DNA of 64,000 bases from a virus: IMG/VR virus record IMGVR_UViG_3300030419_004676, positions 8,449-72,448 of that record; one strand, given 5' to 3'. Below, piece by piece: positions 6,437 to 56,470 of the stretch. Position 1 is the first letter of the stretch. Each line of letters begins with the position of its first letter. Under the pieces are notes generated by a model that was not told the origin of the DNA, ran no database searches, and was given only the letters and a program-made list of their open reading frames with translations. The position numbers and the translations under genes were made by a program.

Positions 6437-6445
6437 ATATTTATA
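6437..6445 (+). promoter_or_regulatory. ATATTTATW motif, putative late promoter
   Basis: ATATTTATA 26 nt before ATG 6472. Confidence 0.55.
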
Positions 6446-6471
6446 TATGAAAGAGTAATGAGGTTATTATT

Positions 6472-16469: not shown

Positions 16470-16570
16470 TAAAAATAATAAAAAAATATTACAATAAAAT
16501 TAAACGATGGTATCTTTTTAAGAAGAGACTTCGTGAAATAAAAAAAAGAGACCCGTTTATTTATAAATGA
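16466..16570 (+). CDS. 34-aa basic peptide missing from the ORF track
   Basis: MIKIIKKYYNKIKRWYLFKKRLREIKKRDPFIYK; ATGA overlaps at both ends. Confidence 0.7.
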   Translation: MIKIIKKYYNKIKRWYLFKKRLREIKKRDPFIYK

Positions 16571-18021: not shown

Positions 18022-18815
18022 TGATATATTTTACAATTAAAATTGATGTCGCTCCTGATAAACATGATAATCATCAAGAAGTAGGTTCTCATATAAATTC
18101 CATAATAATGGTTTCTAATAAGGCGGGGTCTACTTTTGTTAGTGAGTGTGTAAAATGGTGTTATCATGACCAACACTTTATGTTAGATTCTCGGTCAGCG
18201 GTGAATGCATGGTTGTTCAGTTCAATGAAAAGGGAAGTTTATGATAATGCTACTAAATTATTTGTAAAAAGAAATCCATATGAAAGGTTTTTATCGGTTT
18301 GGACATTTGGACACAAAAATGACCCATCTTCTGGTACTAACTATAATGACCCTGGTAAGAGAATGTGGGAAACTCACAAAGAATATAACAAATATAAACC
18401 AAGTGAATTGAAACCCAACATGAATCTATTATCTATGACAAAAAAGGATTGGCAAAAAAGTTTTGAAGAGTTTTGTGTCTCATGGGATAAGGGTGAAATT
18501 TATGATGCACATGCACATTTAATGTCAAAAGATTTACATTTATTTCCAGAAGACACTTTTGAATTTGTAGAAATTTCTGAATTATATAATTCAAAAATAT
18601 ATAACAAATTATTTATGGAAGATGCACATAGGCCAGTAGACGAGTATATTAGTCACCCAGGTGATGATGGTATTACTGATATCACTCGTAATATAAATCC
18701 ATCAAACAGATATTTATCAAATTGGAAAGATTATTATAATGATAATACAAAAGAATTAGTATATAAATTTATGAAACAAGACTTTGAAAACTTAAATTAT
18801 AGTGAAGATTTTTAA
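18021..18815 (+). CDS. Sulfotransferase family 2-like protein
   Basis: NKAGST (5'-PSB-like), RNPYERFLS (3'-PB), C-terminal YY...VY...DFENLNY. Confidence 0.7.
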   Translation: MIYFTIKIDVAPDKHDNHQEVGSHINSIIMVSNKAGSTFVSECVKWCYHDQHFMLDSRSAVNAWLFSSMKREVYDNATKLFVKRNPYERFLSVWTFGHKNDPSSGTNYNDPGKRMWETHKEYNKYKPSELKPNMNLLSMTKKDWQKSFEEFCVSWDKGEIYDAHAHLMSKDLHLFPEDTFEFVEISELYNSKIYNKLFMEDAHRPVDEYISHPGDDGITDITRNINPSNRYLSNWKDYYNDNTKELVYKFMKQDFENLNYSEDF

Positions 18816-18824
18816 ACCTTTTTT

Positions 18825-18833
18825 ATATTTATA
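18825..18833 (+). promoter_or_regulatory. ATATTTATW motif, putative promoter of the structured leader
   Basis: ATATTTATA ends 4 nt before the first stem of the leader. Confidence 0.55.
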
Positions 18834-18837
18834 TATA

Positions 18838-18958
18838 AGTCAGGTAGTGCTAACACTCTTCGGAGAAAGTCCTAACCCACTACTTTAGACTATAAAACAA
18901 GGGTGGCATTTAAATAGTTTTACTATTATAGATGCCTCTAATTATTGGAGGCTTTTTT
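18838..18958 (+). ncRNA. Structured 5' leader (candidate riboswitch/attenuator)
   Basis: AGTC/GACT and AGGTAGTG/CACTACTT stems enclose a CTC-TTCG-GAG tetraloop hairpin, followed by mutually overlapping hairpins 18905-18936 and 18934-18952. Confidence 0.6.
18934..18958 (+). terminator. Intrinsic terminator-like hairpin that also sequesters the RBS
   Basis: GCCTCTAA-TTA-TTGGAGGC followed by T6; 3' arm contains GGAGG 7 nt before ATG 18959. Confidence 0.65.
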
Positions 18959-19924
18959 ATGCGAATATTAATTACAGGTGGAGCTGGATATTTAGGTTCA
19001 GTAATCACAAGACAATTATTGTTACATCATACGGTAACCGTAATAGACAATTTGATGTATAATCAAACATCATTATTAGATTTATTTGGTAAACCAGGTT
19101 TTAAGTTTATCTATGGGGATGTTCGTGATACAAATTTATTACTTAAACAAGTAAAAGAACATGATGTAATAATTCCACTTGCAGCCATTGTCGGATTTCC
19201 AAGTTGTGAAAAAGATAAACAACTTGCAACTGATATCAATTTTAATCAAATCAAAAATATTGTAGATAATTTATCAAAACATCAACGAATACTATATCCA
19301 AATACCAATAGTGGTTATGGTAGTAGAACTAATAAAGGTGAAGTAGATGAAACAAATTCACTAACACCAATCAGTCATTATGGTATTACAAAGTGTGATT
19401 CAGAAAATTATATAAAAGATAATAGTAATGGAATAACATTTAGATTAGCTACCGTGTTTGGTGTATCAAGTCGTATGAGATTAGATTTATTAGTTAATGA
19501 ATTTGTATATAAATTATTAACAGATAAATATATTACTATTTTTGAAAAAGAGTTTGTTCGTAATTTTATTCACATTCAAGATGTTGCATCGGTATTTAAT
19601 TATATGTGTATAAAATATGATGAGTATCATAATCAAATATTTAATGTGGGATTATCAGACACTAATATAAATAAAAAACAATTAGTAGAAAGAATACAAA
19701 AATATATCCCTGATACATCAGTAACTTATTCAGATTATTTTGTAGACCCTGATAAAAGAGATTATATTGTAAGTAATAAAAAAATAGAGTCAACAGGTTG
19801 GTCACCTAACTTTAGTTTAGATGATGGTATACAAGAATTAATAAAGGCATATCAAATGATTGTTCCACATGAAAGTTCACATTATAGAAATGCATTCCCA
19901 CTAAGTTATGGTGCATCATTATGA
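18959..19924 (+). CDS. NAD-dependent NDP-sugar epimerase/dehydratase/reductase (extended SDR)
   Basis: MRILITGGAGYLG, YGITK, FRLATVFG; start moved to the ATG after GGAGG. Confidence 0.9.
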   Translation: MRILITGGAGYLGSVITRQLLLHHTVTVIDNLMYNQTSLLDLFGKPGFKFIYGDVRDTNLLLKQVKEHDVIIPLAAIVGFPSCEKDKQLATDINFNQIKNIVDNLSKHQRILYPNTNSGYGSRTNKGEVDETNSLTPISHYGITKCDSENYIKDNSNGITFRLATVFGVSSRMRLDLLVNEFVYKLLTDKYITIFEKEFVRNFIHIQDVASVFNYMCIKYDEYHNQIFNVGLSDTNINKKQLVERIQKYIPDTSVTYSDYFVDPDKRDYIVSNKKIESTGWSPNFSLDDGIQELIKAYQMIVPHESSHYRNAFPLSYGASL

Positions 19925-20427
19925 CATTTCCATACGATAGAATTGAATCAGATATTTTACCAGAAGTAATAATGTTTAAACCAACACCACATATGGACTA
20001 TCGTGGTGAAATGTGGACATATTGGGAAAATACATATGAAACACCAAAAGAAAAAATATCTAAATTTACTCGTTCAAGAAAAAATGTATTAAGAGGTTTA
20101 CATGGGGACAGAGAAACTTGGAAACACATTACTTGTGTTTATGGTGAAATATATTTAGTGGTTGTAGATTATAGAGAAGATAGTGTAAATTATCTAACTT
20201 GGGAGAGTTATTTGATATCAGATAGAAATCATTTAAGTGTATTAGTTCCACCAGGTTTTCTAAATGGACATTTATGTTTATCAGACGAGTGTGTATTTCA
20301 CTATACACAATCTTATCCAAACGAGTATGTAGATACCAATGAACAAATTAGTCTTAAATGGAATGACCCAATGTTAAAAATTCAATGGCCAATAAATAAT
20401 CCAATATTATATGGGAGAGATAAATGA
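19921..20427 (+). CDS. rmlC: dTDP-4-dehydrorhamnose 3,5-epimerase family
   Basis: DYRG, SRKNVLRGLH, VVVDYR, VPPGFLNGH, WNDP...WP. Confidence 0.9.
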   Translation: MTFPYDRIESDILPEVIMFKPTPHMDYRGEMWTYWENTYETPKEKISKFTRSRKNVLRGLHGDRETWKHITCVYGEIYLVVVDYREDSVNYLTWESYLISDRNHLSVLVPPGFLNGHLCLSDECVFHYTQSYPNEYVDTNEQISLKWNDPMLKIQWPINNPILYGRDK

Positions 20428-21119
20428 GTGTAAAAATACCAAAACATATTTTAGATGGTGGAGTTATTAGAGAAATAACTTTAACTAAACAAGATTTAAT
20501 TGATTTTGAAAAAGAAGTTGCAGATTCGTATAATGATGGTGAAATAACAGCACCTGTTCATCTTGCATCAAATAATGAAGAACAATTAATAGAGGTTTTT
20601 CAGTATGTAAGTGAAATGGATTGGGTATTTTGTAGTTGGAGAAATCATTATCATGCACTATTACATGGTATAGATAAAGATAATCTAATGAGACAGATTA
20701 AGAATGGTAAGAGTATGAGTGTTAATCATTTTTATTCTGAAGATATGAGTTCACATCCAATTACAAGACAATGGAAATTTTATTCTTCATCTATTGTTGG
20801 TGGAACTTTACCAATTGCATTAGGAGTTGCATTATCTATAAAAAGAGACAATAAAGAACATCGTGAAAATAAATTACCTAAAGTTTGGTGTTTTGTTGGA
20901 GATATGACTTTTGAAAGTGGTATCTTTCATGAAGTATATAAATATGCTCGTAATAATGATTTACCATTGGAGTTTGTAGTTGAGGATAATAATCTCTCTA
21001 CAAATACACCTACTGATGAAACTTGGGGAAAGAAACAAGATGTTCCTGATGATGTGATTTATTATAAATATAAAAGTGATTACCCACACCACGGAACTGG
21101 CACTTGGGTTATGTTTTAG
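20424..21119 (+). CDS. TPP-dependent enzyme, E1-alpha-like subunit
   Basis: PVHL, WRNHYHAL, SSIVGG, GDMTFESG...VEDNN (GDG-like...NN TPP motif). Confidence 0.85.
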   Translation: MSVKIPKHILDGGVIREITLTKQDLIDFEKEVADSYNDGEITAPVHLASNNEEQLIEVFQYVSEMDWVFCSWRNHYHALLHGIDKDNLMRQIKNGKSMSVNHFYSEDMSSHPITRQWKFYSSSIVGGTLPIALGVALSIKRDNKEHRENKLPKVWCFVGDMTFESGIFHEVYKYARNNDLPLEFVVEDNNLSTNTPTDETWGKKQDVPDDVIYYKYKSDYPHHGTGTWVMF

Positions 21120-21127
21120 GAGAAATT

Positions 21128-22636
21128 ATGTTAGATATATTACCATTTAAATACTCATCACAAAAACTTGAATTAAAGGAATTCCATCATGGGAAAAAAC
21201 CAAGAACAAGAGATGAGTTAAATTCATACTATGATACAAAAGATTATCTATATGAAGTTACTCGTGAAGACCAATATGGAAATGCATTATCACAAATGTA
21301 TTATTATTATGATGGTGGTCGTGGTAAATTTAAAGTTCATCATACAGAACATTTTTTAGGAAAAAATAAACCTTATTTGATTTATGTTGAATATCAACCT
21401 GACTCTTCTTCTCCAGGCCCATCAAGACAAATGAAATTTGTTTTATCTAAAGCACTTGGAAAACAACATATTGATAATATAAAAAGTGGTAGAGCAAAAA
21501 TATGGTTTGATTGTACACCTGAAGAGAGAGTTCACGCAGAAGAAATTAACGATGATAATATATCCAAATTAATGAAATTTCTTGATAAAAATAAAATTCC
21601 ACAAGAATCAATATTATATACAGATGGTGATTTACTTGTAGATGAGTTATTTGAAAAATATGGAAAAGTAAATACAAAAGTTTTACCATTACATATGAAT
21701 AATGCATGGGAATCTTTTGAAAGATTTGCAAAAGATAATATGTGGTCAAGGTTAATTGTAAATCAAGAATACTTTTTAAGACCTAAACATTTTATGTTTA
21801 ATAATTTTATGCCAAGAACTGCAAGAACTATATTAATGTCAAAATTAGTTAAATCTGGAATATACAAAAAAGGATTCTGTTCATTTCAGGATATTGGAAA
21901 AGATGGTAATATATTTTTTCCATCCATGGGTGATGCATCATTTGATGATAGGTCATTTAACATATATCAGATATGTCGGACTGGAGATGTAAAAGGTTTT
22001 GATAAATACTTAGATATTTTAAGACCTGTATTACCTTTATCACATGATATGGTGGGTATAAAACAAGAAGATACTTTAGATAATTTAGATTATACTACTG
22101 CACGAATTGATGATGCAATGACATTGGTTCATTCATATGATAGTGCATTAGAAGATAAGGGTAAAAGAGTATTAACACATTATGATAGTACTTATGGGCC
22201 GTATTATAATCCTATTTCATATCTTAATGTTTATTTTGATGTATGTGCAGAAACATTTTCAGGTGGATTTGGTGATTATGATATTGAACCATTAGGGCCT
22301 GTATTTACAGAAAAAATATGGAGACCACTTGCACTTGGTACACCATTTATTCCTATTGCAGAACCAGGTAGTGTTAGAGCTTTAAAAAAACTTGGATTTA
22401 AATTGTATGATAAGATGTTTGATTATTCATTTGATGACGAAAAAGATGGACATAAGAGAATTGAAATGATTTATGATAATATAAAAAGATTAACCGATAT
22501 GTCAAGAGATGAATTACATAAATTAACTTATCAACATAAAAAAGACATGGTATACAACCATGAATATTTTATTAATGATTTTTATCACAATGTATATAAT
22601 AATCATTTAGAATTTTTAAATGGATGGGTAAAATGA
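21128..22636 (+). CDS. Putative GT-B glycosyltransferase (GT10-like 'TEK' family), paralogue 1
   Basis: YFDVCAET...FTEKIWRPL...PFI...LKKLGF...FDYSFD; AGGAG RBS before ATG 21128. Confidence 0.55.
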   Translation: MLDILPFKYSSQKLELKEFHHGKKPRTRDELNSYYDTKDYLYEVTREDQYGNALSQMYYYYDGGRGKFKVHHTEHFLGKNKPYLIYVEYQPDSSSPGPSRQMKFVLSKALGKQHIDNIKSGRAKIWFDCTPEERVHAEEINDDNISKLMKFLDKNKIPQESILYTDGDLLVDELFEKYGKVNTKVLPLHMNNAWESFERFAKDNMWSRLIVNQEYFLRPKHFMFNNFMPRTARTILMSKLVKSGIYKKGFCSFQDIGKDGNIFFPSMGDASFDDRSFNIYQICRTGDVKGFDKYLDILRPVLPLSHDMVGIKQEDTLDNLDYTTARIDDAMTLVHSYDSALEDKGKRVLTHYDSTYGPYYNPISYLNVYFDVCAETFSGGFGDYDIEPLGPVFTEKIWRPLALGTPFIPIAEPGSVRALKKLGFKLYDKMFDYSFDDEKDGHKRIEMIYDNIKRLTDMSRDELHKLTYQHKKDMVYNHEYFINDFYHNVYNNHLEFLNGWVK

Positions 22637-23427
22637 TAGGACATAGTGGTGTTTATTGGACAGCATCTTTAGTAAATTTATTTGGTAAAGAAAATATCAG
22701 AGTAGTTCAGATTGGTGCATGGAATGGTCATGAAACAAATCAGATTGCATCTATGGTTAGACAATGGGATGGTGAGTTAATTGTAATTGATTGGTTTAAG
22801 GGTAACATATCTGTAACTGATGATAGTGATATAAAATATGATGAAGACCATGTTGAAGAAAATAAAAAATTATTTTGGAGTAATATAGAACCTAAAAATA
22901 AAAAAGTTATTGATTTAAGAGTTGGTAATTCAAATGATTTAATTAAAGATATTGAAGACGATTCTATTGATATATTTCATATTGATGGTGCACATGAGTA
23001 TTCTATAGTTAAAAAGGATATTGAACTTGGATATCCAAAAGTAAAAGTAAATGGATTTATGTGTGGTGATGACTATTCAGGTGATTATCATATAAATAGA
23101 GTTGGTGAACTTAATAAAAAGTATTTAGAAGTAGATACAATTAATGGATATGGATATGAACATATAAATGGTGATATCATACCTAATATACATGCAGGTG
23201 TTATTAAGGCAGTCTATGAATATTTTGATAAAGGAGATATAATGTTTAATCTACCACAGGCGAAGTGGTTACATTGGAAGAAACCTAACTCTGAAGTAGG
23301 TTATAATATGGAATCATTTACAAAGGGATTGAGATATGAAGGCAGTATATTGGATGAGTTTAATCCTGATGAAGAAATAGAAGAAATAAAAAATACACCT
23401 GCTTTTGGAAGTGAGTTTAATAAATGA
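22633..23427 (+). CDS. Class I SAM-dependent methyltransferase (Methyltransf_24-like)
   Basis: VQIGAWNG, IDWFKG, IDIFHIDGAHEY...GFMCGDDY. Confidence 0.8.
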   Translation: MIGHSGVYWTASLVNLFGKENIRVVQIGAWNGHETNQIASMVRQWDGELIVIDWFKGNISVTDDSDIKYDEDHVEENKKLFWSNIEPKNKKVIDLRVGNSNDLIKDIEDDSIDIFHIDGAHEYSIVKKDIELGYPKVKVNGFMCGDDYSGDYHINRVGELNKKYLEVDTINGYGYEHINGDIIPNIHAGVIKAVYEYFDKGDIMFNLPQAKWLHWKKPNSEVGYNMESFTKGLRYEGSILDEFNPDEEIEEIKNTPAFGSEFNK

Positions 23428-24065
23428 AATATATCGGTAATAGAGAACATCCAATAAACACAATTACAAGATATTATGCAGGTGATAATTCACATGATGT
23501 AGATTATTTTTTCAATGAGTATGGATATAGATACGATGGTTCAGATAAATGGTATGATAATAATTTAGTTGTTATTGGTGATAGTTTTACTTTTGGATTG
23601 GGTTTAAATATAGAGGATACTTGGTCACATAAATTATCAGAAAAGCTGAATTGTAATTTAATTAATTTATCTCAAGGGTCATGTTCAAATGAATATATTT
23701 ATAATACTTTGAAAAGAGAATTACCAAAAATTAAAAATGTAAAATGTGTAATTGTTTATTTTACATATCATCATCGTTTTGATTTCATAGAAGAACCAGG
23801 AGGCCCATGGAATTCTAAATGGAAAAAGTTAATTACTTTAATTGGAGAAGAAAAATTAAAAAGTATGAGTGAAAATTTTATTGAATCTACAAAAATATTA
23901 TTAAAAGATATACCAAATTTTTTATATTCAGTTGAAGATTCAAAACATTTAGATAATAAAATAAGACTAACTTATGATGATTATTCAAATAATAAAACTC
24001 ATCCAGGTAAAGAATCAAATGATATTTTTTTTAAAAAAATTTATGAGGTAATAAAGAATGTATAA
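23424..24065 (+). CDS. SGNH/GDSL-like protein
   Basis: IGDSFTFG, INLSQGSCSN, terminal THPG. Confidence 0.7.
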   Translation: MKYIGNREHPINTITRYYAGDNSHDVDYFFNEYGYRYDGSDKWYDNNLVVIGDSFTFGLGLNIEDTWSHKLSEKLNCNLINLSQGSCSNEYIYNTLKRELPKIKNVKCVIVYFTYHHRFDFIEEPGGPWNSKWKKLITLIGEEKLKSMSENFIESTKILLKDIPNFLYSVEDSKHLDNKIRLTYDDYSNNKTHPGKESNDIFFKKIYEVIKNV

Positions 24066-24717
24066 TAAAATTTATGTAAATGGAGCAAGTTGGGTTCAAG
24101 GTATGGGAGTTGAAAGAAATGAAGTTTTTAGTTATCATTTGGCAAAACTTTTAGAGTGTGAAGAACTAAACATTGCAGAGGGTGGTGCATCCAATGATTG
24201 GGTAATTAGACAAACCATAGATTATGTTTTGGAAAATAATCCAAAGAATCACTTATTTGTATTAGGTTTTGCAGGTTATTTTAGATGGGATATTTGGGAT
24301 GATATAAAGAAAAAATGGGAAAAGGGACACCCAATGAGTTTTTTAGAAAAATCTTTATTTGATAAAGAAGTAAAAGATAATGGTTTAGAGTATGCAAAAC
24401 ATTGGAAATATTTTGTAGAAAATTTTTATAATGAAAAAATAATGAGAGATAAATTTGTTAGAGATATACATTTGTTAGAATCATTTTTTGAGGTTAGAAA
24501 TATTGATTACATTTTATTTGATACAACATCAGGTATATTGAAAGAGGTTCCAAATACTTTTAAAAATTTTGTTGATTTAAGTTGGGAAGATTTTTGTGGT
24601 GGAAGACATAGATTTGATTCAGGTGAGTATATTAGTTCAGAAGATGGCCATCCAAATTCTAACAACCATAAAAAGTGGTCAAAATATTTGTATGATATTA
24701 TAAAGGAGAAAAAATGA
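24058..24717 (+). CDS. SGNH-like protein
   Basis: VNGASW, NIAEGGASN, DGHPN. Confidence 0.7.
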   Translation: MYNKIYVNGASWVQGMGVERNEVFSYHLAKLLECEELNIAEGGASNDWVIRQTIDYVLENNPKNHLFVLGFAGYFRWDIWDDIKKKWEKGHPMSFLEKSLFDKEVKDNGLEYAKHWKYFVENFYNEKIMRDKFVRDIHLLESFFEVRNIDYILFDTTSGILKEVPNTFKNFVDLSWEDFCGGRHRFDSGEYISSEDGHPNSNNHKKWSKYLYDIIKEKK

Positions 24718-25628
24718 AAGCTTTAATAATAGGTGGTAGAGGAATGGTTGGAAGACAACTTGTTGAGTTGTGTTCTAAAGTTTATGATGAAGTTTGTGTT
24801 GCAGATATAGGTTATAGTATTCCACAAGATTTACCAGATAATGTTGATTATGAACCTTGTGATATGACCTTTAAAACTAATGCAAGTATCGTTGCAGATT
24901 ATAATCATGTTTATCACTTGGCAGGAATTAAAGGTTCACCATTAAGAGTAAAGGAATCACCTGCCGATTATTTACCTATGTTACAATTTGATACCAATGT
25001 TATACAGGCAATTGGTCAATGGAAACCAGATTGGTTTCTTTACACAAGTTCAATTGGTGTTTATCCACCAAGTGAATTTTATAATGAAGATGATGTGTGG
25101 GATAAAGTTCCAAGTCCAAATGATAAAATCCCTGCATACATAAAACGAATGGGAGAGTTAAGTTGTGAGGCTATTAGTATTACAGACGATTATAAAAATA
25201 TATCCATTGTTAGACCAGCAAACATATACGGCCCTTTTGATAATTTTGGTGATGAATCTACCGTGATTGCATCAATGATTAAAAAAGGTTATCATGATGA
25301 TGTTATAAATGTTTGGGGAGATGGAACACCAATACGAGATTTCATATATTCAAAAGATGTAGCTCGTGGTATGTTACATATGGTTCAGAATAAAGTAAAT
25401 GATGTAGTGAATCTTGGTAGTGGTGAAGAAGTTAGAATATCAGATATCGCCAGTGTGATTGGGACATACTTTGGAACAGAGATAGAGTATGATTTGACAA
25501 AACCAAATGGTGATATGAGAAGACAAATGAATACAGATAGAATGAAATCATATGGGTTTGAAAGAGAATATACATTACAAATGGGTTTAACAGAAACAAT
25601 AGAATATTATGAGGAGTTACAAAAATGA
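24714..25628 (+). CDS. NDP-sugar epimerase/reductase (GDP-L-fucose synthase-like SDR)
   Basis: GGRGMVG, RPANIYGPFDNF, VWGDGTPIRDFIY, KPNG. Confidence 0.85.
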   Translation: MKALIIGGRGMVGRQLVELCSKVYDEVCVADIGYSIPQDLPDNVDYEPCDMTFKTNASIVADYNHVYHLAGIKGSPLRVKESPADYLPMLQFDTNVIQAIGQWKPDWFLYTSSIGVYPPSEFYNEDDVWDKVPSPNDKIPAYIKRMGELSCEAISITDDYKNISIVRPANIYGPFDNFGDESTVIASMIKKGYHDDVINVWGDGTPIRDFIYSKDVARGMLHMVQNKVNDVVNLGSGEEVRISDIASVIGTYFGTEIEYDLTKPNGDMRRQMNTDRMKSYGFEREYTLQMGLTETIEYYEELQK

Positions 25629-26665
25629 TTTACATATTAGATAATGGAGATATGTTTCCTAAGTTATTGAAAACAATAACAAAATGGTTAGATTATGAAG
25701 TAAAAGAAATACCAGACCTTAAGTTTGAATATCAAAAAAGTGATATATTAATATTAAATGGTGAACATTTTACAGAATTATATCATAAAAGTAAAGATGA
25801 GTTATGGGAAAAATTTAAAAAAATACAAATACCAATTATAATAATAATTGATGATTCTGCATTGGGTTGGGGCCCAACTAAAATGCATGTTGTTGATAAT
25901 AGACCTATTTATATTTTAACACCATCAATTGGAACAGATATACCTAAGTTTGGAGTTCAACCAAATGATGATAATTTTAATTATTTATTAACACATATAA
26001 TAGAAAATAGTGACGAAAATGTTACCGAACAATTACTTGAAAGTGGTAAAAGTTTTTTAAGAAGTAAATACTTTCTTTCTTTAAATAGAGAACCAAAACC
26101 ACATAGAGATTTTTTATATAATTTTATTGATACAAATAATCTATATTCAAAATTTTATTATTCTTATACTAAAAAGAAAAACCCTATATTTTTAGATGGT
26201 GATAAAGACTGGGGTAGATATTCAATATTAGACCCAACAGATATAAATTATGTTAAACATTATGATTCATACTTTAGTGTTATTACTTTACCAGAATATG
26301 AAAAAGGACATTTTCATTTTATTGATGAAAAAATGTGGAAACCTATATTAAGTCATCAACCATTTATTCTTTTGGGTGCACCTTTTTATTTAAAAACTTT
26401 AAAATCGTTTGGATTTCAAACTTTTTATGATTTGATTGATGAGTCATATGATAATATGATTAATGATAAACAAAGATGGAACAGAGCGTGTGTAGAAATT
26501 AAAAAACTTTCAAAAACACCTATAAGTAAAATCCATGAATGGTATTATAGTTCTGATACACAATCAAAATTAAAACATAATTATAATGTTGCAAAAAAAA
26601 TGTCTTGGCAACAAAGAGAAAAAATTTCAACTTTAATAGAAGATTTACAAGATTACGATGTATAA
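25625..26665 (+). CDS. Putative GT10-like glycosyltransferase, paralogue 2
   Basis: FLSLNREPKPHR; YFSVIT...IDEKMWKP...QPFI...GFQTF..IDESYD. Confidence 0.55.
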   Translation: MIYILDNGDMFPKLLKTITKWLDYEVKEIPDLKFEYQKSDILILNGEHFTELYHKSKDELWEKFKKIQIPIIIIIDDSALGWGPTKMHVVDNRPIYILTPSIGTDIPKFGVQPNDDNFNYLLTHIIENSDENVTEQLLESGKSFLRSKYFLSLNREPKPHRDFLYNFIDTNNLYSKFYYSYTKKKNPIFLDGDKDWGRYSILDPTDINYVKHYDSYFSVITLPEYEKGHFHFIDEKMWKPILSHQPFILLGAPFYLKTLKSFGFQTFYDLIDESYDNMINDKQRWNRACVEIKKLSKTPISKIHEWYYSSDTQSKLKHNYNVAKKMSWQQREKISTLIEDLQDYDV

Positions 26666-27785
26666 CGGATATCATTTTGATAAATTAATAATTAATCACT
26701 TGCAAGATTATAAAATACATTTTATGACCTTTGAAGATGTCTATGCCGATAAAAACATTGAGGTAGATTCTTTTGATTATATTATTTTGTCACATGAATT
26801 TGAAGTATCAAATACTAAATTATTTGAAGACTTACATAACTATTTTGATAAAAAATTAATAGAGTTGGATAAAGTTATTTTAGTTATGGGTGACTTTTCT
26901 TTAGAAGAAAAATATAATAATTTTTGTAATAATAATAACTTTTACAAGTATAAACCTAAACTTAATATGTTGAGTGCATTTTTTATGGAAATTTGTATTA
27001 GAGATAATTTTGAAATCTCTTGGTATCTTGAATATAAAAAGAATATCTTAAACGACCTTAATAATATTCGTAAATCTTACCAATTAAAGCCTAAAAGATT
27101 CTTATCAATGAATGGTACATTAAAACCACATCGTGAAAAGTTTATATCATATATAAAAAAACATCAGTTAACAGATTATATAGATTATTCAGAGTTACAA
27201 TCAGGTATGCCTGTAGATAAATATAATTTTAACGATAAAAAAATAAAAAGATTTATTGAACAACAGGAAAAACAAATTGATACAAGAGTTGATATACAAG
27301 ATATGAATAAAGATATAGATAAAACTTTTCATTTAAATTATGTTTATGGAGATAGTCAATGGAAGATTCCTGGACAAGAAAATCTATATCAATTGTATAA
27401 GAATTATAATATAGATATTATTTCAGAGAGTGAAGCTAATCATGATGATAGTTTATTTTTTACTGAAAAAACTTTACGACCTTTATATTTTGGATTACCA
27501 TTTTTAATGATTGGTAATAAAAATATGTTAAGTAATTTACAAGAAATGGGATATGCAACTTATGATAATATATTTGATGAATCTTATGATAAACTTGATT
27601 CTTGGAGAGATAGACTTGAACATGTATCATCTGAAGTAAATAGATTTTGTAGTATGAATCAATCTGAATTTACTTTACAAATGCACAAAGCTACTGATAA
27701 TATATTACATAATGTTCATCATTTTTTTCAAAATGATTATGAATTAAAAAGAATTGAAAGAAAACTTGGAGAGATAGTCTCATGA
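26658..27785 (+). CDS. Putative GT10-like glycosyltransferase, paralogue 3
   Basis: FLSMNGTLKPHR; IISES...FTEKTLRP...PFL...FDESYD. Confidence 0.55.
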   Translation: MYNGYHFDKLIINHLQDYKIHFMTFEDVYADKNIEVDSFDYIILSHEFEVSNTKLFEDLHNYFDKKLIELDKVILVMGDFSLEEKYNNFCNNNNFYKYKPKLNMLSAFFMEICIRDNFEISWYLEYKKNILNDLNNIRKSYQLKPKRFLSMNGTLKPHREKFISYIKKHQLTDYIDYSELQSGMPVDKYNFNDKKIKRFIEQQEKQIDTRVDIQDMNKDIDKTFHLNYVYGDSQWKIPGQENLYQLYKNYNIDIISESEANHDDSLFFTEKTLRPLYFGLPFLMIGNKNMLSNLQEMGYATYDNIFDESYDKLDSWRDRLEHVSSEVNRFCSMNQSEFTLQMHKATDNILHNVHHFFQNDYELKRIERKLGEIVS

Positions 27786-29143
27786 AAGTATTAATATTTG
27801 ATGGATACACCGATAATTTATTTAGAATCTTTTTTAATCATGATTCAAGACTAAATGTGAAGACTCACTACCAACAAAGAGAGGATTCAGATGGTTCTCA
27901 AATCTATAATGAAAAAGATTGGGATATTTTAGTAATGTCATTGTTTGATGTAGATAACCATTTTTCACAAGAAAATTCTACAGAAAACATTAAAAATATG
28001 AAACGATTAATTAATAACTCAAATTCTCAATTTAAAATATTCATAGATGGTTTAGGTGAGGGTTGTGACATCGGAAGGAGATGGGGCCAATTATTTGATT
28101 TTTGTGATAACTTAGATATTGACCCAAATACAATTAATTTATTTTTAACAACTATGAATGTTGAAGAAAGTTATAATGAATGGAAAAAGTCGGACACCTT
28201 AAGAAATTTAAAATTTGCGAAAAATTTTATTTATAATGAAAAAATACCATTCAACTGGTATGATAATGACTTTTTATCATTTGTATATTTTAGTGTTAAT
28301 AGGTTTATAAATAAAGATAATAAAGTTACCACTATGGGTGGAGAATATAATAAATTATATGAAAAGGATGGATTGTTTTTAAAACCTAATCGTCAATTAA
28401 GAGATTATAAAATTCTATCACTTGTTGCAAATCCAATGACACATAGGGTTATTGTTCAGAATCATTTACTAAAAAATCAATATGACAAACAAGGATTAAT
28501 TAGTTTTAATGATAATTTACAAAATATTGTGAATAGTCGGGGTCAAAAAATAGACCATGTTGTTTGTGATACAAGAGTTTTGAAAGAATTTAATTTATTG
28601 GAGTATTTTAATAAAGAATTTTTAAATAGAATACCAATTAGAATAGATTGGGAAGAATTTAATAATTCACAATCCTTTCTTGGTCGTTATAGTCCTAATT
28701 ATGATTTTTATAACAACTCATACTTTAGTGTTGTATGTGAGACAAATTATGAGATGGAGTTTGACAATGACACTTATTCATATCATTTACCAATATTCTT
28801 AACAGAAAAAACTTTAAATGCATTATGGTCATATCATCCATTCATTATAGTGAATCACAAACATAGTTTAAAGAAATTAAGAGAATTGGGATTTGAAACT
28901 TTTCCAGAATTATTTGATGAAAGTTATGATGAGGAGTTTGACCCACAAAAAAGATTAAAAATGGTTTTATCAGAAATAGATAGAGTGATGAAACTTGATA
29001 AAAAAGAATTACATAAAATTTATTGGAGTATGGAAGATAAATTTATACATAATAGAAATGTTATACTTGATATAGTGTTGAATCAAACACCAAATGTATA
29101 TGAAGACTTAAACAAAATATTAGGAATCGGGGATACGGTATGA
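27782..29143 (+). CDS. Putative GT10-like glycosyltransferase, paralogue 4
   Basis: YFSVVCET...LTEKT...HPFII...LRELGFETF..FDESYD. Confidence 0.55.
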   Translation: MKVLIFDGYTDNLFRIFFNHDSRLNVKTHYQQREDSDGSQIYNEKDWDILVMSLFDVDNHFSQENSTENIKNMKRLINNSNSQFKIFIDGLGEGCDIGRRWGQLFDFCDNLDIDPNTINLFLTTMNVEESYNEWKKSDTLRNLKFAKNFIYNEKIPFNWYDNDFLSFVYFSVNRFINKDNKVTTMGGEYNKLYEKDGLFLKPNRQLRDYKILSLVANPMTHRVIVQNHLLKNQYDKQGLISFNDNLQNIVNSRGQKIDHVVCDTRVLKEFNLLEYFNKEFLNRIPIRIDWEEFNNSQSFLGRYSPNYDFYNNSYFSVVCETNYEMEFDNDTYSYHLPIFLTEKTLNALWSYHPFIIVNHKHSLKKLRELGFETFPELFDESYDEEFDPQKRLKMVLSEIDRVMKLDKKELHKIYWSMEDKFIHNRNVILDIVLNQTPNVYEDLNKILGIGDTV

Positions 29144-30090
29144 AAATTTTAGTAACAGGAACATCAGGACTAATAGGATATAATCTTGTAGAAAGATTAT
29201 TAAAAGATGGACACGAAGTATTTGGAACAATACATAAAAACAATAAAAGAGTAAAAGGTGTAGAATACTTTTATGGTGATTTACGAGATATGGAATTTTG
29301 TAAAGAAATCACAGAGGGTATGGATATAGTTGTTAATTGTTCTGCAAATACTTCAAATGCAGTTGATACCGTAAAGTCACCTTTAGTTCATGTTACACCG
29401 AATGTTATAGTAAACACACAATTGATAGAGGCTACATATTTCAATAAAGTAAAGAAGTATGTATTTATCAGTAGTTCAACCGTATATCCACCAAGTGGTG
29501 AAGATTTAGTTGATGAAACTTGGAATATATTTGAAGAACCATATCCTGTATATCATGCAGTAGGTTGGATGAAAAGATATGGTGAAGTGTTGTGTGATTT
29601 ATATGCAAATCAATTATCACCAAATATGGATTGTTTAGTGGTGAGACCTGCAAATTGTTATGGGCCCCATGATAAATGGGACTTTGATAAGTGTCATGTC
29701 ACACCTGCAACAATTAGAAAAGTAATTGACAAACATAATCCAATTCAAGTTTGGGGTGATGGTGAGGATGTTAGAGATGTTATATACATAGAAGATTTTA
29801 TAGATGGTTTAGTGAATGTCATGGAGAATTCTAAAGACAAATATGAAGTAGTTAATATTGGTTCTAATACAAGTTATAGTGTTAATGAGATATTAGATAC
29901 TTGTATGGAAGTTGATAATTACAACGCACCAATTGAATATATTAGTGGCAAACCATCTATGATACCAATCAGAAAAATAAGTTCTGATAAGATGAAAAAT
30001 AAATACCAATGGGAAGCAAAAACTTCATTGTCAGAGGGAATAAGAAAGACAATAGATTGGTATAAACAGGAGTACGGAAATGACGAATAA
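29140..30090 (+). CDS. NDP-sugar epimerase/reductase (GDP-L-fucose synthase-like SDR)
   Basis: GTSGLIG, ISSSTVYP, RPANCYGPHD, VWGDGEDVRD. Confidence 0.85.
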   Translation: MKILVTGTSGLIGYNLVERLLKDGHEVFGTIHKNNKRVKGVEYFYGDLRDMEFCKEITEGMDIVVNCSANTSNAVDTVKSPLVHVTPNVIVNTQLIEATYFNKVKKYVFISSSTVYPPSGEDLVDETWNIFEEPYPVYHAVGWMKRYGEVLCDLYANQLSPNMDCLVVRPANCYGPHDKWDFDKCHVTPATIRKVIDKHNPIQVWGDGEDVRDVIYIEDFIDGLVNVMENSKDKYEVVNIGSNTSYSVNEILDTCMEVDNYNAPIEYISGKPSMIPIRKISSDKMKNKYQWEAKTSLSEGIRKTIDWYKQEYGNDE

Positions 30091-30820
30091 TGAAATACTT
30101 TCTTTTTACAAAGAGAATGGTTACTATGTAGAAAATATTTTCTCTACAGAAGTAATGGATGAGTATAGAGAAGAGGGTAATAGATTGATTGAATTGAGGA
30201 AAACTTCAGAAGAAGATGATAACACAAGACCATATGCATATACACATAGAGATTCAGAGTTATTTGATAAGTTGTGGAGACACCCACGAACTTTAGAAAT
30301 ACTTGAAACACTAATTGGTGGTAAAGTTGATGGATTACAAACTTGGATGTATTTTAAACCACCAGGTGAGTTGGGTAGAGATGTTCACCAAAACATTTTT
30401 TACTCTCATGCAAACCGAGGTGACATTATAAATGCATCTTGTGCCATTGATGATAGTGATGAAGAGAATGGATGTCTATATGTTTATCCTGGTTCACAAG
30501 TGGAATCATGTCTACCAATCAATATTGATGAGGATAGACTATTAACAAATCCAGACGATTGGAGAAATGAACGAGGTAAACCTTGTCACATACCAGGAGA
30601 ATGGGTTGATGGTGTTTGGACAGATAGATATGAAAAAATATATCTACCAATGAATTCAGGTGATGTTATATTTTTACATTCACATGTAATTCATGGTTCA
30701 GAGACTAATAAATCAGAGACTAAATGGAGAAGAGCTGCACTTGGTAGTTATCTTAGACAAGATGCACACTTTAATCCAGGTGGTCAAATGAAAAGAGAAA
30801 GAATAAATCTTTATGATTAA
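30080..30820 (+). CDS. PhyH-family Fe(II)/2-oxoglutarate dioxygenase
   Basis: YFKPPG, HQN, ENGCL.V.PGS, GDVIFLH..VIHGS..N, RRA. Confidence 0.85.
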   Translation: MTNNEILSFYKENGYYVENIFSTEVMDEYREEGNRLIELRKTSEEDDNTRPYAYTHRDSELFDKLWRHPRTLEILETLIGGKVDGLQTWMYFKPPGELGRDVHQNIFYSHANRGDIINASCAIDDSDEENGCLYVYPGSQVESCLPINIDEDRLLTNPDDWRNERGKPCHIPGEWVDGVWTDRYEKIYLPMNSGDVIFLHSHVIHGSETNKSETKWRRAALGSYLRQDAHFNPGGQMKRERINLYD

Positions 30821-32153
30821 AGACTATACAAAAGGATATTATTGGCAAGACAATTATTATCCTGATATAAATCATGTTTATAAAAATAAAGATTATAAAT
30901 ATGATATTGATGTTAGATTAATTGATGGGTGTGGTGATTCAGTTTCACAACAAAGACTTGAAAAAAGTATTGAAGTACTAAAAGAGTTTGAGGAGAAATT
31001 ACCTTTTAGAAGTTTTGCTATTGTTTCACCACTTGTACCACCATATCCATGTGAAGAACACAATTGGATTGAATTGAAAGGTACTATGGACTATCATGAT
31101 TATGGAGAGTTTGTATTAAAATATCTACATAAATATTTTGATGCACCACATGTATTATTGATTCAATGGGATTGTTTTATAACCAATATTGATAAATGGA
31201 AAGATGAGTTTCTTGATTATGACTTAGTATACACAATATCTGATGGGTGTCAAAATGATGATTCTGAATTTATAGAAGACATTGGACATTTCAATGGTGG
31301 ACTAACATTAAGGTCTAAAAAGTTTTGTAAATCTACATCTGATTATTTTACTAATGCAAAGAGTAAAAATGGAATCATTTATAGATTTGATGAATCAAGT
31401 GGTATGGTATTTAAACAAAATGAAGATTTATTGATACATGAGAACTATGAAGAATTAAAAAAATATGATTTAAAGTTTGCATCACCAAGTTTAACAAGTG
31501 AGTTTTCTTTAGGTAATCATACAACATCTATTCTTCCACATAGAAAACAAACTGCATTTGGATTTCACGATATGAGTATGAAGTTTCAAATAGTAGAAGA
31601 TGATAATGGAGAACCAATTATTATGAATTATAAAGATGAATTAAATCGTTCTATGAAATGGTTAAGTGATAAAGAGGATACTATTTTTATGGGACAATCA
31701 GTTAAGTATAGTGGTAATTCTATTTATGGAACATTACAAGATATTGATGATGAGAAGAGATTAGAATTACCTGTGTTTGAAGAAATACAAATGGGAATGA
31801 GTACAGGTATGGCACTAAATGGACATGTTCCAATTAGTTGTTTTCCAAGAATGGACTTCCTACTTAGATGTATGGATAGTTTAGTAAACCATTTAGATAA
31901 GATTCAAGATATGACTAATGGTCAAATGAAACCAAAAGTTATAATACGAACTGCAGTTGGTTCTCGTGAACCACTAAATGGTGGAGTACAACATACTCAG
32001 AATTATATTAAACAACTAAAAGAGATGTTAACTGAAGTCAAAATTGTTGAGCTTGATAAAACAGAAGATATATTTAATGAGTTTACAAAAGCATACAATA
32101 GAGATGGTTCAACAATTTTAGTAGAATATGGGGATTATTACAATGACAGATAA
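30813..32153 (+). CDS. Fusion of a GT-A-like (DUF5672-like) domain and a TPP enzyme E1-beta/transketolase pyrimidine-binding domain
   Basis: LLIQWD...W.DEFLDYD...NGGLTLRS...NED; from 31623 MNYKDEL...GQSV...ELPVFE..QMG..TGMAL...LVNHLDK...QH. Confidence 0.75.
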   Translation: MIKDYTKGYYWQDNYYPDINHVYKNKDYKYDIDVRLIDGCGDSVSQQRLEKSIEVLKEFEEKLPFRSFAIVSPLVPPYPCEEHNWIELKGTMDYHDYGEFVLKYLHKYFDAPHVLLIQWDCFITNIDKWKDEFLDYDLVYTISDGCQNDDSEFIEDIGHFNGGLTLRSKKFCKSTSDYFTNAKSKNGIIYRFDESSGMVFKQNEDLLIHENYEELKKYDLKFASPSLTSEFSLGNHTTSILPHRKQTAFGFHDMSMKFQIVEDDNGEPIIMNYKDELNRSMKWLSDKEDTIFMGQSVKYSGNSIYGTLQDIDDEKRLELPVFEEIQMGMSTGMALNGHVPISCFPRMDFLLRCMDSLVNHLDKIQDMTNGQMKPKVIIRTAVGSREPLNGGVQHTQNYIKQLKEMLTEVKIVELDKTEDIFNEFTKAYNRDGSTILVEYGDYYNDR

Positions 32154-32970
32154 CCAATATAGAATTATTACGGGTGGTTGTAGTTTTTCAAAGAAAGCTG
32201 ATGTACCTATAATGAAAGAAAAAGAAAAAACTTGGACAAATGCAATAGAAGAATATTTTGATTTTCCATTTTATTATCATACAGGTGAACCTGCATCTGG
32301 TAATTCTTTGATATCAAGAAGAGTTATTTATACACTATCTAATGTTTTAAAAATACCTAATATAAAAAAAGAAGATATTTTAGTTTCAGTTATGTGGAGT
32401 GACCCAATACGAACTGATTTATTTGGTTCATTAGAGGAAACTTATAAATGGCCAGGATTAACTAAACACAAGGGTAATACTGAACCTTTAAGATTAGGAG
32501 AAGGAATGAATACCGCCTATAATAAAGAAAATAGAAATTGGGGATATTTTAGAAGTGGTGGATTTCCAAATAAAGATGGATATGCATTTAAAGAATATAC
32601 AGATTGGTTTACTAATTATTATGAAAATTATTATACTACAGAATATTCTTTCATTAATACTTTTGAGTCTATTTTAAGAGTACAATATTTTTGTAAATTA
32701 CATAAAATAAAATATGTATTTCATACTATGAAAAATATATTTACTAATAAAGATGGAGAGTTTCTACATAAACAATATAAAGAGACTGAACATTTATTTG
32801 AACAAATTGATTTTGAAAATTTTGTTTTTTCAAATGATTATGATGGTTTATATGAATATGCAAAAGAACATGACTTACCATTCTGGGATGATAATCTACA
32901 TGTAGAATGGGATGGACATAAGACATATTTTAACAAAATTATAAAACCAGAAATATTGGAGTTAATATGA
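32143..32970 (+). CDS. SGNH-like protein
   Basis: GGCSFS, ASGNSLI, VMWS, terminal DNLH. Confidence 0.65.
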   Translation: MTDNQYRIITGGCSFSKKADVPIMKEKEKTWTNAIEEYFDFPFYYHTGEPASGNSLISRRVIYTLSNVLKIPNIKKEDILVSVMWSDPIRTDLFGSLEETYKWPGLTKHKGNTEPLRLGEGMNTAYNKENRNWGYFRSGGFPNKDGYAFKEYTDWFTNYYENYYTTEYSFINTFESILRVQYFCKLHKIKYVFHTMKNIFTNKDGEFLHKQYKETEHLFEQIDFENFVFSNDYDGLYEYAKEHDLPFWDDNLHVEWDGHKTYFNKIIKPEILELI

Positions 32971-34370
32971 AAATAGTATTTGACCAAAATGTACCATATC
33001 TGATACCTAATGCATGTCACCTTGAAATTAAAAGGTATGTTATGAATGAACATAATGGATTCTACGACCATACAGAAGTTTCGGTTAGAGAAAAATTTGG
33101 GGAACCTTGGCATGTTTATAATTCAAGTTTTAGGAATTATTATGAAGATATGATAACAAACATAAAAGATGTTAAACCAGAAGATACTTGGGTATATCCT
33201 GTAGAAATTTTTGGAGATTTTCAAAAATCATTTGGTATAAATCAAGAAAAGGGTTCATTATATGATGGTTGGAATTTTACACAGGCAATTCCACCTACTA
33301 CAATGAGTAAGTTAAAACAATCAAATGGTTATATATTAATTACAATGGTTCATGAGGGTTTAGTAGTTGATGTATTTTTTGAAAGATTGGCACAGATTTG
33401 TGAAGCAAATAATTTACCAATGAAAAAGATAATTATATTAACAAGTGGTAACCATGGTATAAAAAAACAACATCACACTTGGCACCAAAAGAATATGCAA
33501 ACTACAGACAGATTTAATGTTATGAACTATCACTACTTTTTATACGAAAAAGGACATGAGTATAATATAGGTATTGATAAGTTTGAATCTAAGGAGACTA
33601 AAGGAAAACTTAGTTCTGTATCATTAGGTGATTTTAAAAATAGTTTAGGTAAAAAAAGAGATAATAAGTTTTTGTGTTTTAATAGAAGAATGCATCCACA
33701 TCGTGTAATGTTGGTTGCAGAATTACATAGATTGGGTATTTTAGATAAGAATTTAGTTAGTTTTCAATTTACATTAGATGGTGATTTTAGATTTCCAACA
33801 AGAATTGATACCTACATTGAAGAATACAAGATGATTTATGATGATGAGCAAACCTATAGAGAAAAATTTGAAAAGTATATCAAACAAGTTATTAAAATGA
33901 AAAAAAGAATGATTGACCATGAAGACTTATCCAAAATTCATGGATTTCGTGGAGATGTTAAAAAACCTTGGTTAAATACTTATTATAGTGTAGTAACAGA
34001 ATCTAATTTTTTTAGAAGAAGTGATTATATAACAGAAAAGACTTGGAAATGTGTTGGTAATTTCCATCCTTTTATAGTATTTGGAAGACCAAATACAATT
34101 GGTGAATTAAAAAGACTTGGATTTAAAACTTTTCATCCATTTATTGATGAATCATATGATAGAGTAGTTGATAATAAAAAAAGATACAATATGATTCTTG
34201 ATGAAATAGTAAGATTGCAAAATATACCTGAAGAAGAAATGGTAAAATGGTATTCTGATATGAAAGATATTCTAATTCACAATTATAATCATTTTATGAA
34301 ATTAGGTAGTGAAAGAAATAAACAATTTAATAATTTATTCAAAGAGATAGAAGAAAAATGTACAAAATAA
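32967..34370 (+). CDS. Putative GT10-like glycosyltransferase, paralogue 5
   Basis: KFLCFNRRMHPHR; YYSVVTESN...YITEKTWK...HPFI...LGFKTFHPFIDESYD. Confidence 0.55.
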   Translation: MKIVFDQNVPYLIPNACHLEIKRYVMNEHNGFYDHTEVSVREKFGEPWHVYNSSFRNYYEDMITNIKDVKPEDTWVYPVEIFGDFQKSFGINQEKGSLYDGWNFTQAIPPTTMSKLKQSNGYILITMVHEGLVVDVFFERLAQICEANNLPMKKIIILTSGNHGIKKQHHTWHQKNMQTTDRFNVMNYHYFLYEKGHEYNIGIDKFESKETKGKLSSVSLGDFKNSLGKKRDNKFLCFNRRMHPHRVMLVAELHRLGILDKNLVSFQFTLDGDFRFPTRIDTYIEEYKMIYDDEQTYREKFEKYIKQVIKMKKRMIDHEDLSKIHGFRGDVKKPWLNTYYSVVTESNFFRRSDYITEKTWKCVGNFHPFIVFGRPNTIGELKRLGFKTFHPFIDESYDRVVDNKKRYNMILDEIVRLQNIPEEEMVKWYSDMKDILIHNYNHFMKLGSERNKQFNNLFKEIEEKCTK

Positions 34371-44862: not shown

Positions 44863-44871
44863 ATATTTATA
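44863..44871 (+). promoter_or_regulatory. ATATTTATW motif, putative late promoter
   Basis: ATATTTATA in the gap, only 3 nt before ATG 44875. Confidence 0.45.
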
Positions 44872-44874
44872 TAT

Positions 44875-55365: not shown

Positions 55366-55366
55366 A

Positions 55367-56461: not shown

Positions 56462-56470
56462 ATATTTATA
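56462..56470 (+). promoter_or_regulatory. ATATTTATW motif, putative late promoter
   Basis: ATATTTATA 20 nt before ATG 56491. Confidence 0.55.

What the first reader, a model, noticed from the sequence alone, without database searches (positions are those of the whole stretch)
18825..18961. Riboswitch-like leader with competing hairpins ahead of the NDP-sugar genes
Seen: the only large gap in the island holds a promoter motif (18825) and then an aptamer-like fold (18838-41/18888-91; 18842-49/18878-85; C-UUCG-G hairpin 18856-65; CTAAC twice in the joining strands). Next is a 14-bp hairpin (18905-18936) whose 3' end overlaps the 5' arm of a terminator hairpin (18934-18952 + T6) that also buries the GGAGG RBS of ATG 18959. 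GGTGG (18902-06) could alternatively pair with CCACT (18877-81). Inference: a switchable expression platform governing ~17 kb of sugar genes, perhaps sensing a nucleotide or nucleotide sugar. Phage-associated wcaG and manA RNA motifs are known upstream of similar genes; I cannot tell whether this matches them.
Basis: partly seen in the sequence, partly recalled or inferred. Interest (0 to 1): 0.78.

Follow-up and report, generated by a model that had tools for sequence, protein, structure and literature searches.

The report
Pseudoknotted riboswitch-like phage sugar-operon leader
The gap holds one copy of an uncatalogued, conserved, pseudoknotted leader RNA that a group of uncultured marine T4-like phages place in front of their nucleotide-sugar genes; it is built like a riboswitch, but what it senses is unknown.

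Summary
The window is a fragment of an uncultured T4-like phage. The features described at 18825-18961 are there.

One sequence folded alone is unconvincing (z -1 to -2). Comparison gives the support:
- I found the element in 32 records: 19 IMG/VR, 12 metagenome and one MAG contig. Not all are independent.
- They hold 15 distinct 5' domains.
- In close relatives the leader is 94-99% identical. The flanking genes are 62-84% identical.

Covariation supports P1b, the P2 hairpin, hairpin 2 and the terminator/SD hairpin.

Hairpin 2 and the terminator always share 1-3 bases. In 11 of 13 variants the two states lie within 0.8 kcal/mol.

The element always follows a promoter-like motif. It precedes five different first genes of glycan clusters. 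One variant lacks the U-tract, so there it is a leader, not a separate RNA.

No Rfam family matches, including wcaG and manA.

Best reading: a new riboswitch-like leader, probably an OFF switch, with an unknown ligand.

This scan found the same family before on other DNA (e1-5873285, e1-5858021).

The parts
18825..18836 (+). promoter-like 12-base motif, probably the phage's own (late-type) promoter; transcript start guessed near 18838
   Evidence: 4 exact copies in the window against 0.12 expected, all + strand and ahead of ORFs. A TATTTAT-type motif lies 5-9 bases before the outer stem in all homologues read. The start site is inferred, not shown.
18838..18841 (+). P1a 5' arm, pairs with 18888-18891
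   Evidence: Invariant in 15 of 15 distinct sequences, so it says nothing for or against pairing.
18844..18848 (+). P1b 5' arm, pairs with 18879-18883
   Evidence: 100% of cells paired; 3 of 5 pairs change on both sides.
18850..18855 (+). conserved 5' side of the internal loop (CUAAC/AUAAC plus one base)
   Evidence: UAAC invariant in 15 distinct sequences.
18856..18865 (+). P2 hairpin (3 bp, UUCG loop here; 3-5 bp or longer elsewhere)
   Evidence: Sequence and length vary and pairing is kept: 95.6% of cells paired, 2 of 4 pairs change on both sides (sequences).
18866..18875 (+). conserved 3' side of the internal loop (AAAG-N-CC-N-A-N)
   Evidence: AAAG, CC and A invariant in 15 distinct sequences.
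18876..18878 (+). pseudoknot 5' strand, pairs with 18901-18903
   Evidence: Pair types C-G 10, G-C 3, U-A 1, other 1; C-G 14, U-A 1; C-G 15.
18879..18891 (+). P1b 3' arm (18879-83), variable bulge (18884-87), P1a 3' arm (18888-91)
   Evidence: The bulge is 2-8 bases long in homologues.
18892..18900 (+). A-rich linker between P1a and the pseudoknot 3' strand
   Evidence: The first bases (AUAA) are invariant; the length is 7-12 bases.
18901..18904 (+). pseudoknot 3' strand (18901-03). 18902-03 can instead extend hairpin 2 by pairing with 18938-39
   Evidence: for the pseudoknot. The extension appears in the MFE of 9 of 13 variants and in L236 and L207.
18905..18936 (+). hairpin 2, the anti-terminator / anti-sequestering helix
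   Evidence: 97.7% of cells paired, 4 of 8 basal pairs change on both sides, 0 of 500 shuffles as high. Length is 6-15 bp in homologues.
18934..18952 (+). terminator / SD-sequestering hairpin. Its first three bases are the last three of hairpin 2. SD GGAGG lies at 18947-51
   Evidence: 100% of cells paired, 2 of 7 pairs change on both sides, 13 of 500 shuffles as high.
18953..18958 (+). U-tract between the hairpin and the start codon
   Evidence: It is 5-9 U in 18 of 19 distinct leaders and absent in L181.
18959..36280 (+). controlled gene array. The first gene is an NAD-dependent epimerase/dehydratase (18959-19924). Then come an RmlC-like gene, a TPP enzyme, a methyltransferase, two more SDRs, PhyH and a B12-radical SAM
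   Evidence: Pfam. No gap over 25 bases until 36281.

Best explanation
A phage promoter at about 18825 starts an RNA of roughly 120 bases that precedes the first sugar gene.

**Sensor domain.** The first 67 bases (18838-18904) fold into P1a, P1b, a strongly conserved internal loop, a variable P2 hairpin, and a pseudoknot. The pseudoknot joins the 3' end of the loop (18876-78) to the bases just before hairpin 2 (18901-03).

**Expression platform.** It consists of hairpin 2 (18905-36) and the terminator/SD hairpin (18934-52 plus U6). The two compete for 18934-36.

**Proposed switch.**
- Pseudoknot open: 18902-07, a look-alike of the SD, zips up with the anti-SD 18934-39. No terminator forms and the SD is free (ON).
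- Pseudoknot closed, presumably held by a bound ligand: that extension is lost. The anti-SD pairs with the SD, transcription stops at the U-tract, and the ribosome site is hidden (OFF).

**Shown and inferred.** The helices, their covariation, the shared bases and the gene association are shown. The transcript start, the direction of switching, and the existence and nature of a ligand are inferred.
For: **Constraint.** The leader is 94.4-99.2% identical to the window in four relatives. Their upstream gene is 62-72% identical and their downstream gene 83.5-84.3%.

**Family size.** I found 32 records. One search gave 12 of 12 true hits. One search gave 1 of 41.

**Covariation of the 5' domain.** On 15 distinct 5' domains, 96.3% of cells pair. 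Seven of 17 pairs and 21 cells change on both sides. The score is 0.263 against 0.101 in shuffles, with 0 of 500 as high. Slid controls pair at 28-45%.

**Both competing helices covary**. In L122 the shared base changed, and both of its partners changed with it.

**Balanced states.** The energy difference between the two states is within 0.8 kcal/mol in 11 of 13 variants.

**Link from pseudoknot to platform.** The bases of the pseudoknot's 3' strand take part in the antiterminator in the MFE of 9 of 13 variants and in L236 and L207.

**Cis association.** The SD of the next gene is always the 3' arm of the last hairpin. The first genes seen downstream are:
- SDR;
- RmlC-like;
- GDP-mannose dehydratase (243 bits);
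- E1-beta-like (25.6 bits, below the Pfam cut-off of 27);
- SGNH-like by its first residues only, not scanned.

**A leader, not a separate RNA.** L181 keeps the SD hairpin but has no U-tract.

**Strand.** G-U pairs are frequent in the helices, which points to the + strand.

**No coding signal.** Indels in P2 are not multiples of three.
Against: **Weak single-sequence folds.** z-scores are -1 to -2.

**A short pseudoknot.** Its core is only 3 bp. Its fourth pair fails in 6 of 15 sequences, and L236 breaks one core pair.

**Limited independence.** There are only 15 distinct 5' domains, many closely related, and part of the set was found with patterns that fixed the loop sequences. The alignment was fitted to the model's nested helices; the pseudoknot was not in the model.

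**A partly trivial balance.** The near-equal energies follow in part from moving the same GCC between two GGC partners.

**Extension not universal.** In L119, L125, L121 and L107 the MFE does not use the extension. The link from pseudoknot to platform is therefore not seen in every variant.

**Two-terminator variants.** L107/L114 and L193 have a separate terminator, then a second promoter-like motif, then a second SD hairpin. This fits a self-contained RNA gene better.

**One awkward contig.** A 156-base contig from an RNA library covers 18818-18964, starting 20 bases before the guessed transcript start.

**No binding data.** No ligand, binding test or transcript mapping exists.
Confidence: 0.55

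Rival explanations
1. The same structured leader is read by a protein or another macromolecule (a phage or host RNA-binding protein, a tRNA, the ribosome), not by a small molecule. The platform works as described.
For: The conserved internal-loop bases flanked by covarying helices would suit a protein site as well as a ligand pocket. The family is confined to one phage group: 11 of 46 related records and 1 of 6 near-complete ones hold it. That would fit a phage-encoded partner.
Against: I did not look for a candidate partner gene. A pseudoknot with an A-rich linker next to an expression platform is typical of small-molecule sensors; this point is recalled, not tested.
Confidence: 0.2
2. It is a stand-alone small RNA gene of about 115 bases, with its own promoter and terminator, that acts in trans. 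Its position before sugar genes is only synteny.
For: A promoter-like motif is followed about 120 bases later by a terminator. L107/L114 and L193 carry a separate terminator, then another promoter-like motif. RNA-library contigs cover the leader in two studies.
Against: In every variant the last hairpin holds the SD of the next gene. L181 has no U-tract. One contig runs from the leader 33 bases into the ORF. The element precedes five different genes but always abuts them.
Confidence: 0.1
3. The 5' domain is a processive antitermination RNA, working like HK022 put or the Bacillus eps-associated RNA. It would make RNA polymerase read through this and later terminators of the 17-kb array.
For: Long polysaccharide operons commonly carry such leaders (recalled; the epsC motif is described in PMC2864571, passages read). 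A terminator lies directly downstream.
Against: The array shows no convincing + strand terminators: three weak 6-bp candidates, and 7 sites on both strands against 4.4 +/- 1.9 in shuffles. L181 has no terminator to overcome. The conserved sharing of bases between two covarying helices points to a local switch. No Rfam match.
Confidence: 0.08
4. There is no sensor. The element is a constitutive attenuator, or a stabilising 5' structure, that sets a fixed low expression level.
For: The two states are nearly isoenergetic without any ligand.
Against: It does not explain the invariant loop bases or the covarying pseudoknot outside the competing helices.
Confidence: 0.07

Closest known systems
wcaG RNA motif (Rfam RF01761; Weinberg et al. 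2010, PMC2864571, passages read)
   Same: An orphan riboswitch candidate found in marine metagenomes and T4-like phages, upstream of exopolysaccharide-type genes.
   Different: No match of its covariance model. There was nothing at gathering score on the whole window, nothing at E<=10 on the gap, and nothing at E<=5 on six homologous loci. It was described from cyanophages. I could not see the paper's additional files with its alignment.
manA RNA motif (Rfam RF01745; same paper)
   Same: Marine and T4-like phage distribution, 5' UTRs of sugar-metabolism genes, and a possible pseudoknot.
   Different: No covariance-model match.
Pseudoknotted OFF riboswitches whose pseudoknot strand adjoins the expression platform (for example SAM-II, preQ1-II, fluoride); architecture recalled, not tested
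   Same: A loop strand pairs with a 3' tail across an A-rich linker. The terminator or SD hairpin competes with an alternative helix.
   Different: No sequence or model similarity, a different helix layout, and an unknown ligand.
epsC / eps-associated RNA and JUMPstart (RF01707) leaders of polysaccharide operons
   Same: Conserved RNA or DNA elements in leaders of long glycan operons.
   Different: These act by processive antitermination. No Rfam match here. The overlap of helices here points to a local switch.

Membership tests
wcaG RNA motif (RF01761) | scores with the Rfam covariance model | tested here: not met
   0 matches at gathering on the window. It is not among the 5 matches at E<=10 on 18700-19100. 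It is not among the 5 matches at E<=5 on six homologous loci, none of which lies on a leader.
wcaG RNA motif (RF01761) | marine T4-like phage, upstream of exopolysaccharide-type genes | tested here: met
   T4-type terminase, portal and gp23. SDR and RmlC-like genes lie downstream. Paper passages.
manA RNA motif (RF01745) | scores with the Rfam covariance model | tested here: not met
riboswitch (general) | conserved structured domain with covarying helices and invariant loop bases | tested here: met
   96.3% of cells paired, 7 of 17 pairs change on both sides, 0 of 500 shuffles reach the score. Invariant loop bases.
riboswitch (general) | lies in the 5' leader of functionally related genes in varied contexts | tested here: met
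   Five kinds of first gene and varied upstream genes.
riboswitch (general) | expression platform with mutually exclusive helices tied to the sensor | tested here: inconclusive
   Both helices covary and share 1-3 bases. The tie to the pseudoknot is seen in the MFE of 9 of 13 variants plus 2 more, not in all.
riboswitch (general) | binds its ligand directly, without protein | not testable with these tools
   Needs in-line probing, ITC or similar.
intrinsic terminator | G+C-rich stem followed at once by a U-tract | tested here: met
   8 pairs, 4 G-C, loop of 3, T6. Present in 18 of 19 distinct leaders; L181 lacks the U-tract.
stand-alone sRNA | transcription unit independent of the next gene | tested here: not met
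   The SD and start codon of the next gene are part of, or abut, the last hairpin in all variants. L181 has no terminator.

The most novel reading that the evidence does not exclude
This is the first riboswitch class that senses a nucleotide sugar, for example the GDP-linked deoxysugar made by the cluster, or its precursor. A phage would carry it to feedback-control a late-expressed glycan pathway.
Probability: 0.2. Interest if true: 0.9.

Novelty: new member of a known kind. Interest (0 to 1): 0.7.

Why it matters
No validated riboswitch for a nucleotide sugar is known to me (recalled). The phage-borne candidates wcaG and manA were listed as candidates in 2010; I saw no later validation, and I did not search for one.

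This family offers three things:
- a compact sensor of about 67 bases whose pseudoknot is supported by covariation;
- a clear terminator and SD platform;
- a narrow gene context.

Together these make ligand screening practical.

It would also show how large marine phages time or dose a 17-kb sugar-tailoring pathway. That pathway appears to share a promoter type with virion genes.

Tried and rejected
**Known RNA families.**
- Rfam at gathering score on the window gave nothing.
- At E<=10 on the gap there were only look-alikes of the terminator hairpin, far below threshold.
- ARAGORN found no tRNA or tmRNA.

**Similarity searches.** blastn of 18000-20500 against phage records gave no match.

**Repeats.** No second copy exists in the window or in its 72-kb record.

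- No change on both sides.
- The central pair is broken in 6 of 9 sequences.
- 482 of 500 shuffles are as well paired.

Rejected.

**Promoter motif.** The short motif TATTTATWWA gave 12 matches against 8.0 expected, so it is not enriched. The 12-mer with one mismatch is not enriched either. Only the exact 12-mer is.

**Weak model hits.** L182 and L183 (E 0.05-0.09) lie in coding-looking sequence and were dropped.

**False pattern matches dropped.**
- 52 of 56
- 5 of 15
- 40 of 41

**Small ORFs in the gap.** 18802-18888 on the + strand and 18910-19008 on the - strand are not kept in homologues, whose indels are not multiples of three.

**MAFFT and model alignments.** They left the short P2 of the window type left-justified. 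Its inner P2 pairs were therefore set aside as gaps, not counted.

**RNA runs.**
- All 8 runs hold small shares (0.04-0.12).
- All four laid runs are contigs, so transcription, ends and levels are not shown.
- Parts without cover (18500-18817) mean nothing.
- The shared contig start at 18853 lies 30 bases before the first variant base. I take it for an assembly effect.

**Literature.** Three searches listed no paper on this element. I saw only titles and the starts of abstracts, plus passages of PMC2864571.

Full report
**Setting.** The window is 64 kb of a 72,448-base IMG/VR virus record estimated 29% complete.
- All large ORFs lie on the + strand and G+C is about 0.29.
- T4-type terminase, portal and gp23 genes are present.
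- The capsid protein is at most 58% identical to any deposited phage.

The gap 18816-18958 lies inside a long glycan island. A sulfotransferase-like gene lies upstream. Downstream are an NAD-dependent epimerase/dehydratase, an RmlC-like gene, a TPP enzyme, further SDRs, PhyH and radical SAM genes. ORFs are packed without a gap over 25 bases up to 36280.

**The observation.**
- The consensus scan found the terminator-like hairpin 18934-52 plus T6 as the only + strand site in 16000-22000.
- The 12-base motif at 18825-36 has four exact copies in the window against 0.12 expected. All are on the + strand and ahead of ORFs.
- The other three copies lie 0-25 bases before a start codon. This one lies 122 bases before.
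- Single-sequence folding is not distinctive, with z between -1 and -2.

**Relatives.**
- A protein-guided scan with the epimerase gave 49 loci. Only the four closest (80-93% identity) have the leader; in the other 45 the gene directly follows another ORF.
- In those four the leader is 94.4-99.2% identical to the window. The upstream gene is 62-72% identical and the downstream gene about 84%.
- Pattern scans added 12 of 12 true metagenome hits.
- They also added three, then three more, viral contigs with diverged sequences.
- One contig is binned in a Gammaproteobacteria MAG (1 of 41 hits).
- A covariance model run on 46 whole records of epimerase relatives found 11 real copies, one per record, among them the diverged L181. 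Four further records were not held.
- Scans with the RmlC-like and GDP-mannose dehydratase genes gave 67 loci. The model found the element in 12 of the 66 searched, 7 of them new.

In all there are 32 records, not all independent, with 19 distinct leaders and 15 distinct 5' domains.

**Structure of the 5' domain.** Counts are on the 15 distinct 5' domains.
- P1a never varies.
- P1b pairs in 100% of cells, and 3 of 5 pairs change on both sides.
- P2 varies in sequence and length and keeps pairing.
- A pairing between the end of the internal loop and the bases just before hairpin 2 covaries: C-G 10, G-C 3, U-A 1, other 1; C-G 14, U-A 1; C-G 15.
- A fourth pair holds in only 9 of 15 sequences.
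- Overall 96.3% of cells pair, 21 cells change on both sides, and the score is 0.263 against 0.101 in shuffles. None of 500 shuffles reaches it. Slid controls pair at 28-45%.

This pairing crosses P1, so it is a pseudoknot. The loop bases (UAAC; AAAG, CC, A) and the start of the A-rich linker are invariant.

**Expression platform.**
- The base of hairpin 2 pairs in 97.7% of cells, with 4 of 8 pairs changing on both sides.
- The terminator/SD hairpin pairs in 100% of cells, with 2 of 7 pairs changing on both sides.
- The two helices share three bases here and one to three elsewhere, even where their sequences differ (L122, L207, L236).
- In L122 the shared base changed, together with both of its partners.
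- With either helix enforced, the energies differ by at most 0.8 kcal/mol in 11 of 13 variants. The difference is 1.6 in L111 and 4.3 in L181.
- This balance follows partly from moving the same GCC between two GGC partners.

**Link to the sensor.** The bases 18902-07 resemble the SD and can pair with the anti-SD.
- The MFE uses this extension in 9 of 13 variants and in L236 and L207.
- Two of these bases belong to the pseudoknot.
- Closing the pseudoknot should therefore free the anti-SD and favour the terminator.
- That is the basis of the OFF model. It is an inference, and L119, L125, L121 and L107 do not show the extension.

**Cis or trans.**
- The SD of the next gene is always the 3' arm of the last hairpin.
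- First genes downstream are SDR, RmlC-like, GDP-mannose dehydratase and E1-beta-like (below the Pfam cut-off).
- A fifth is SGNH-like by its first residues only; I did not scan it.
- L181 keeps the hairpin but has no U-tract, so there the element can only be a translational leader.

Against this, L107/L114 and L193 have their own terminator, then a second promoter-like motif, then a second SD hairpin. In L107 the MFE pairs the 5' arm of hairpin 2 with a duplicated 3' arm beyond the first terminator. I leave these unexplained.

**Expression.**
- RNA-library assemblies of two studies hold the leader.
- One 156-base contig covers 18818-18964 without a difference.
- One runs from 18853 to 18992, across the U-tract.
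- One is of the L004 type.

These are contigs. DNA carry-over is not excluded, and no ends can be read from them. The first contig begins 20 bases before my guessed start.

**Comparison with known families.** No Rfam family matches the window's gap or six diverged homologues. The nearest by biology are the wcaG and manA motifs, marine and phage-borne riboswitch candidates upstream of sugar genes (PMC2864571, passages read). Membership fails on the covariance models. Three literature searches listed nothing on this element.

**Earlier notes.** Earlier notes of this scan describe the same family on other DNA as a pseudoknotted, OFF-type leader. I had found the pseudoknot before reading them (note). 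I reached the direction of switching afterwards.

**Verdict.** This is a real, conserved, uncatalogued cis-regulatory leader RNA with riboswitch architecture. The ligand and the direction of switching are not shown.

Noticed in passing
window 16466-16570 (+): A 34-aa ORF ending ...KRDPFIYK fills the 97-base 'gap'. It overlaps the start of the carbamoyltransferase gene by four bases. It matches the micro-protein family noted earlier in this scan (e1-5976863).
   Followed up: partly
window 6437-6448, 44863-44874, 56462-56473 (+): Three further exact copies of the 12-base promoter-like motif, two of them ahead of virion-region genes. The copy at 44863 abuts ATG 44875 directly, so that start codon or that promoter call may be wrong. 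Looser TATTTATT forms lie at 48725 and 57983.
   Followed up: partly
L107:2704-2858, L114:10368-10522, L193:1026-1225: Variants of the leader with a separate terminator that overlaps hairpin 2. A second promoter-like motif follows, then a second SD hairpin with a U-tract. The arrangement is unexplained.
   Followed up: partly
L170 (14.7-kb contig of a MAG titled Gammaproteobacteria bacterium NAT245): A leader identical to the L002 type lies on a contig binned with a gammaproteobacterial genome. This is either a host hint or a binning error.
   Followed up: no
window 39231-44003 (+): A 1590-aa protein with a poly(A) polymerase / CCA-adding head domain at its N-terminus (104.5 bits) and a long unassigned remainder.
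   Followed up: no
window 4262-5743 (+): Hint / pretoxin-HINT / intein-splicing matches in the C-terminal third of a 493-aa protein.
   Followed up: no
window 54107-55693 (+): Four sequences with similar beginnings (about 40 bases, 75-100% alike) at 54107, 54373, 55364 and 55654. The 'gaps' 54114-54375 and 55366-55656 probably hold small paralogous genes.
   Followed up: no
window 8077-8734 and 15067-15745; 12390-12521 and 13855-13986: Diverged duplications (73-77% identical) within the radical SAM genes and within the two GT7 + laminin-G glycosyltransferase genes.
   Followed up: no
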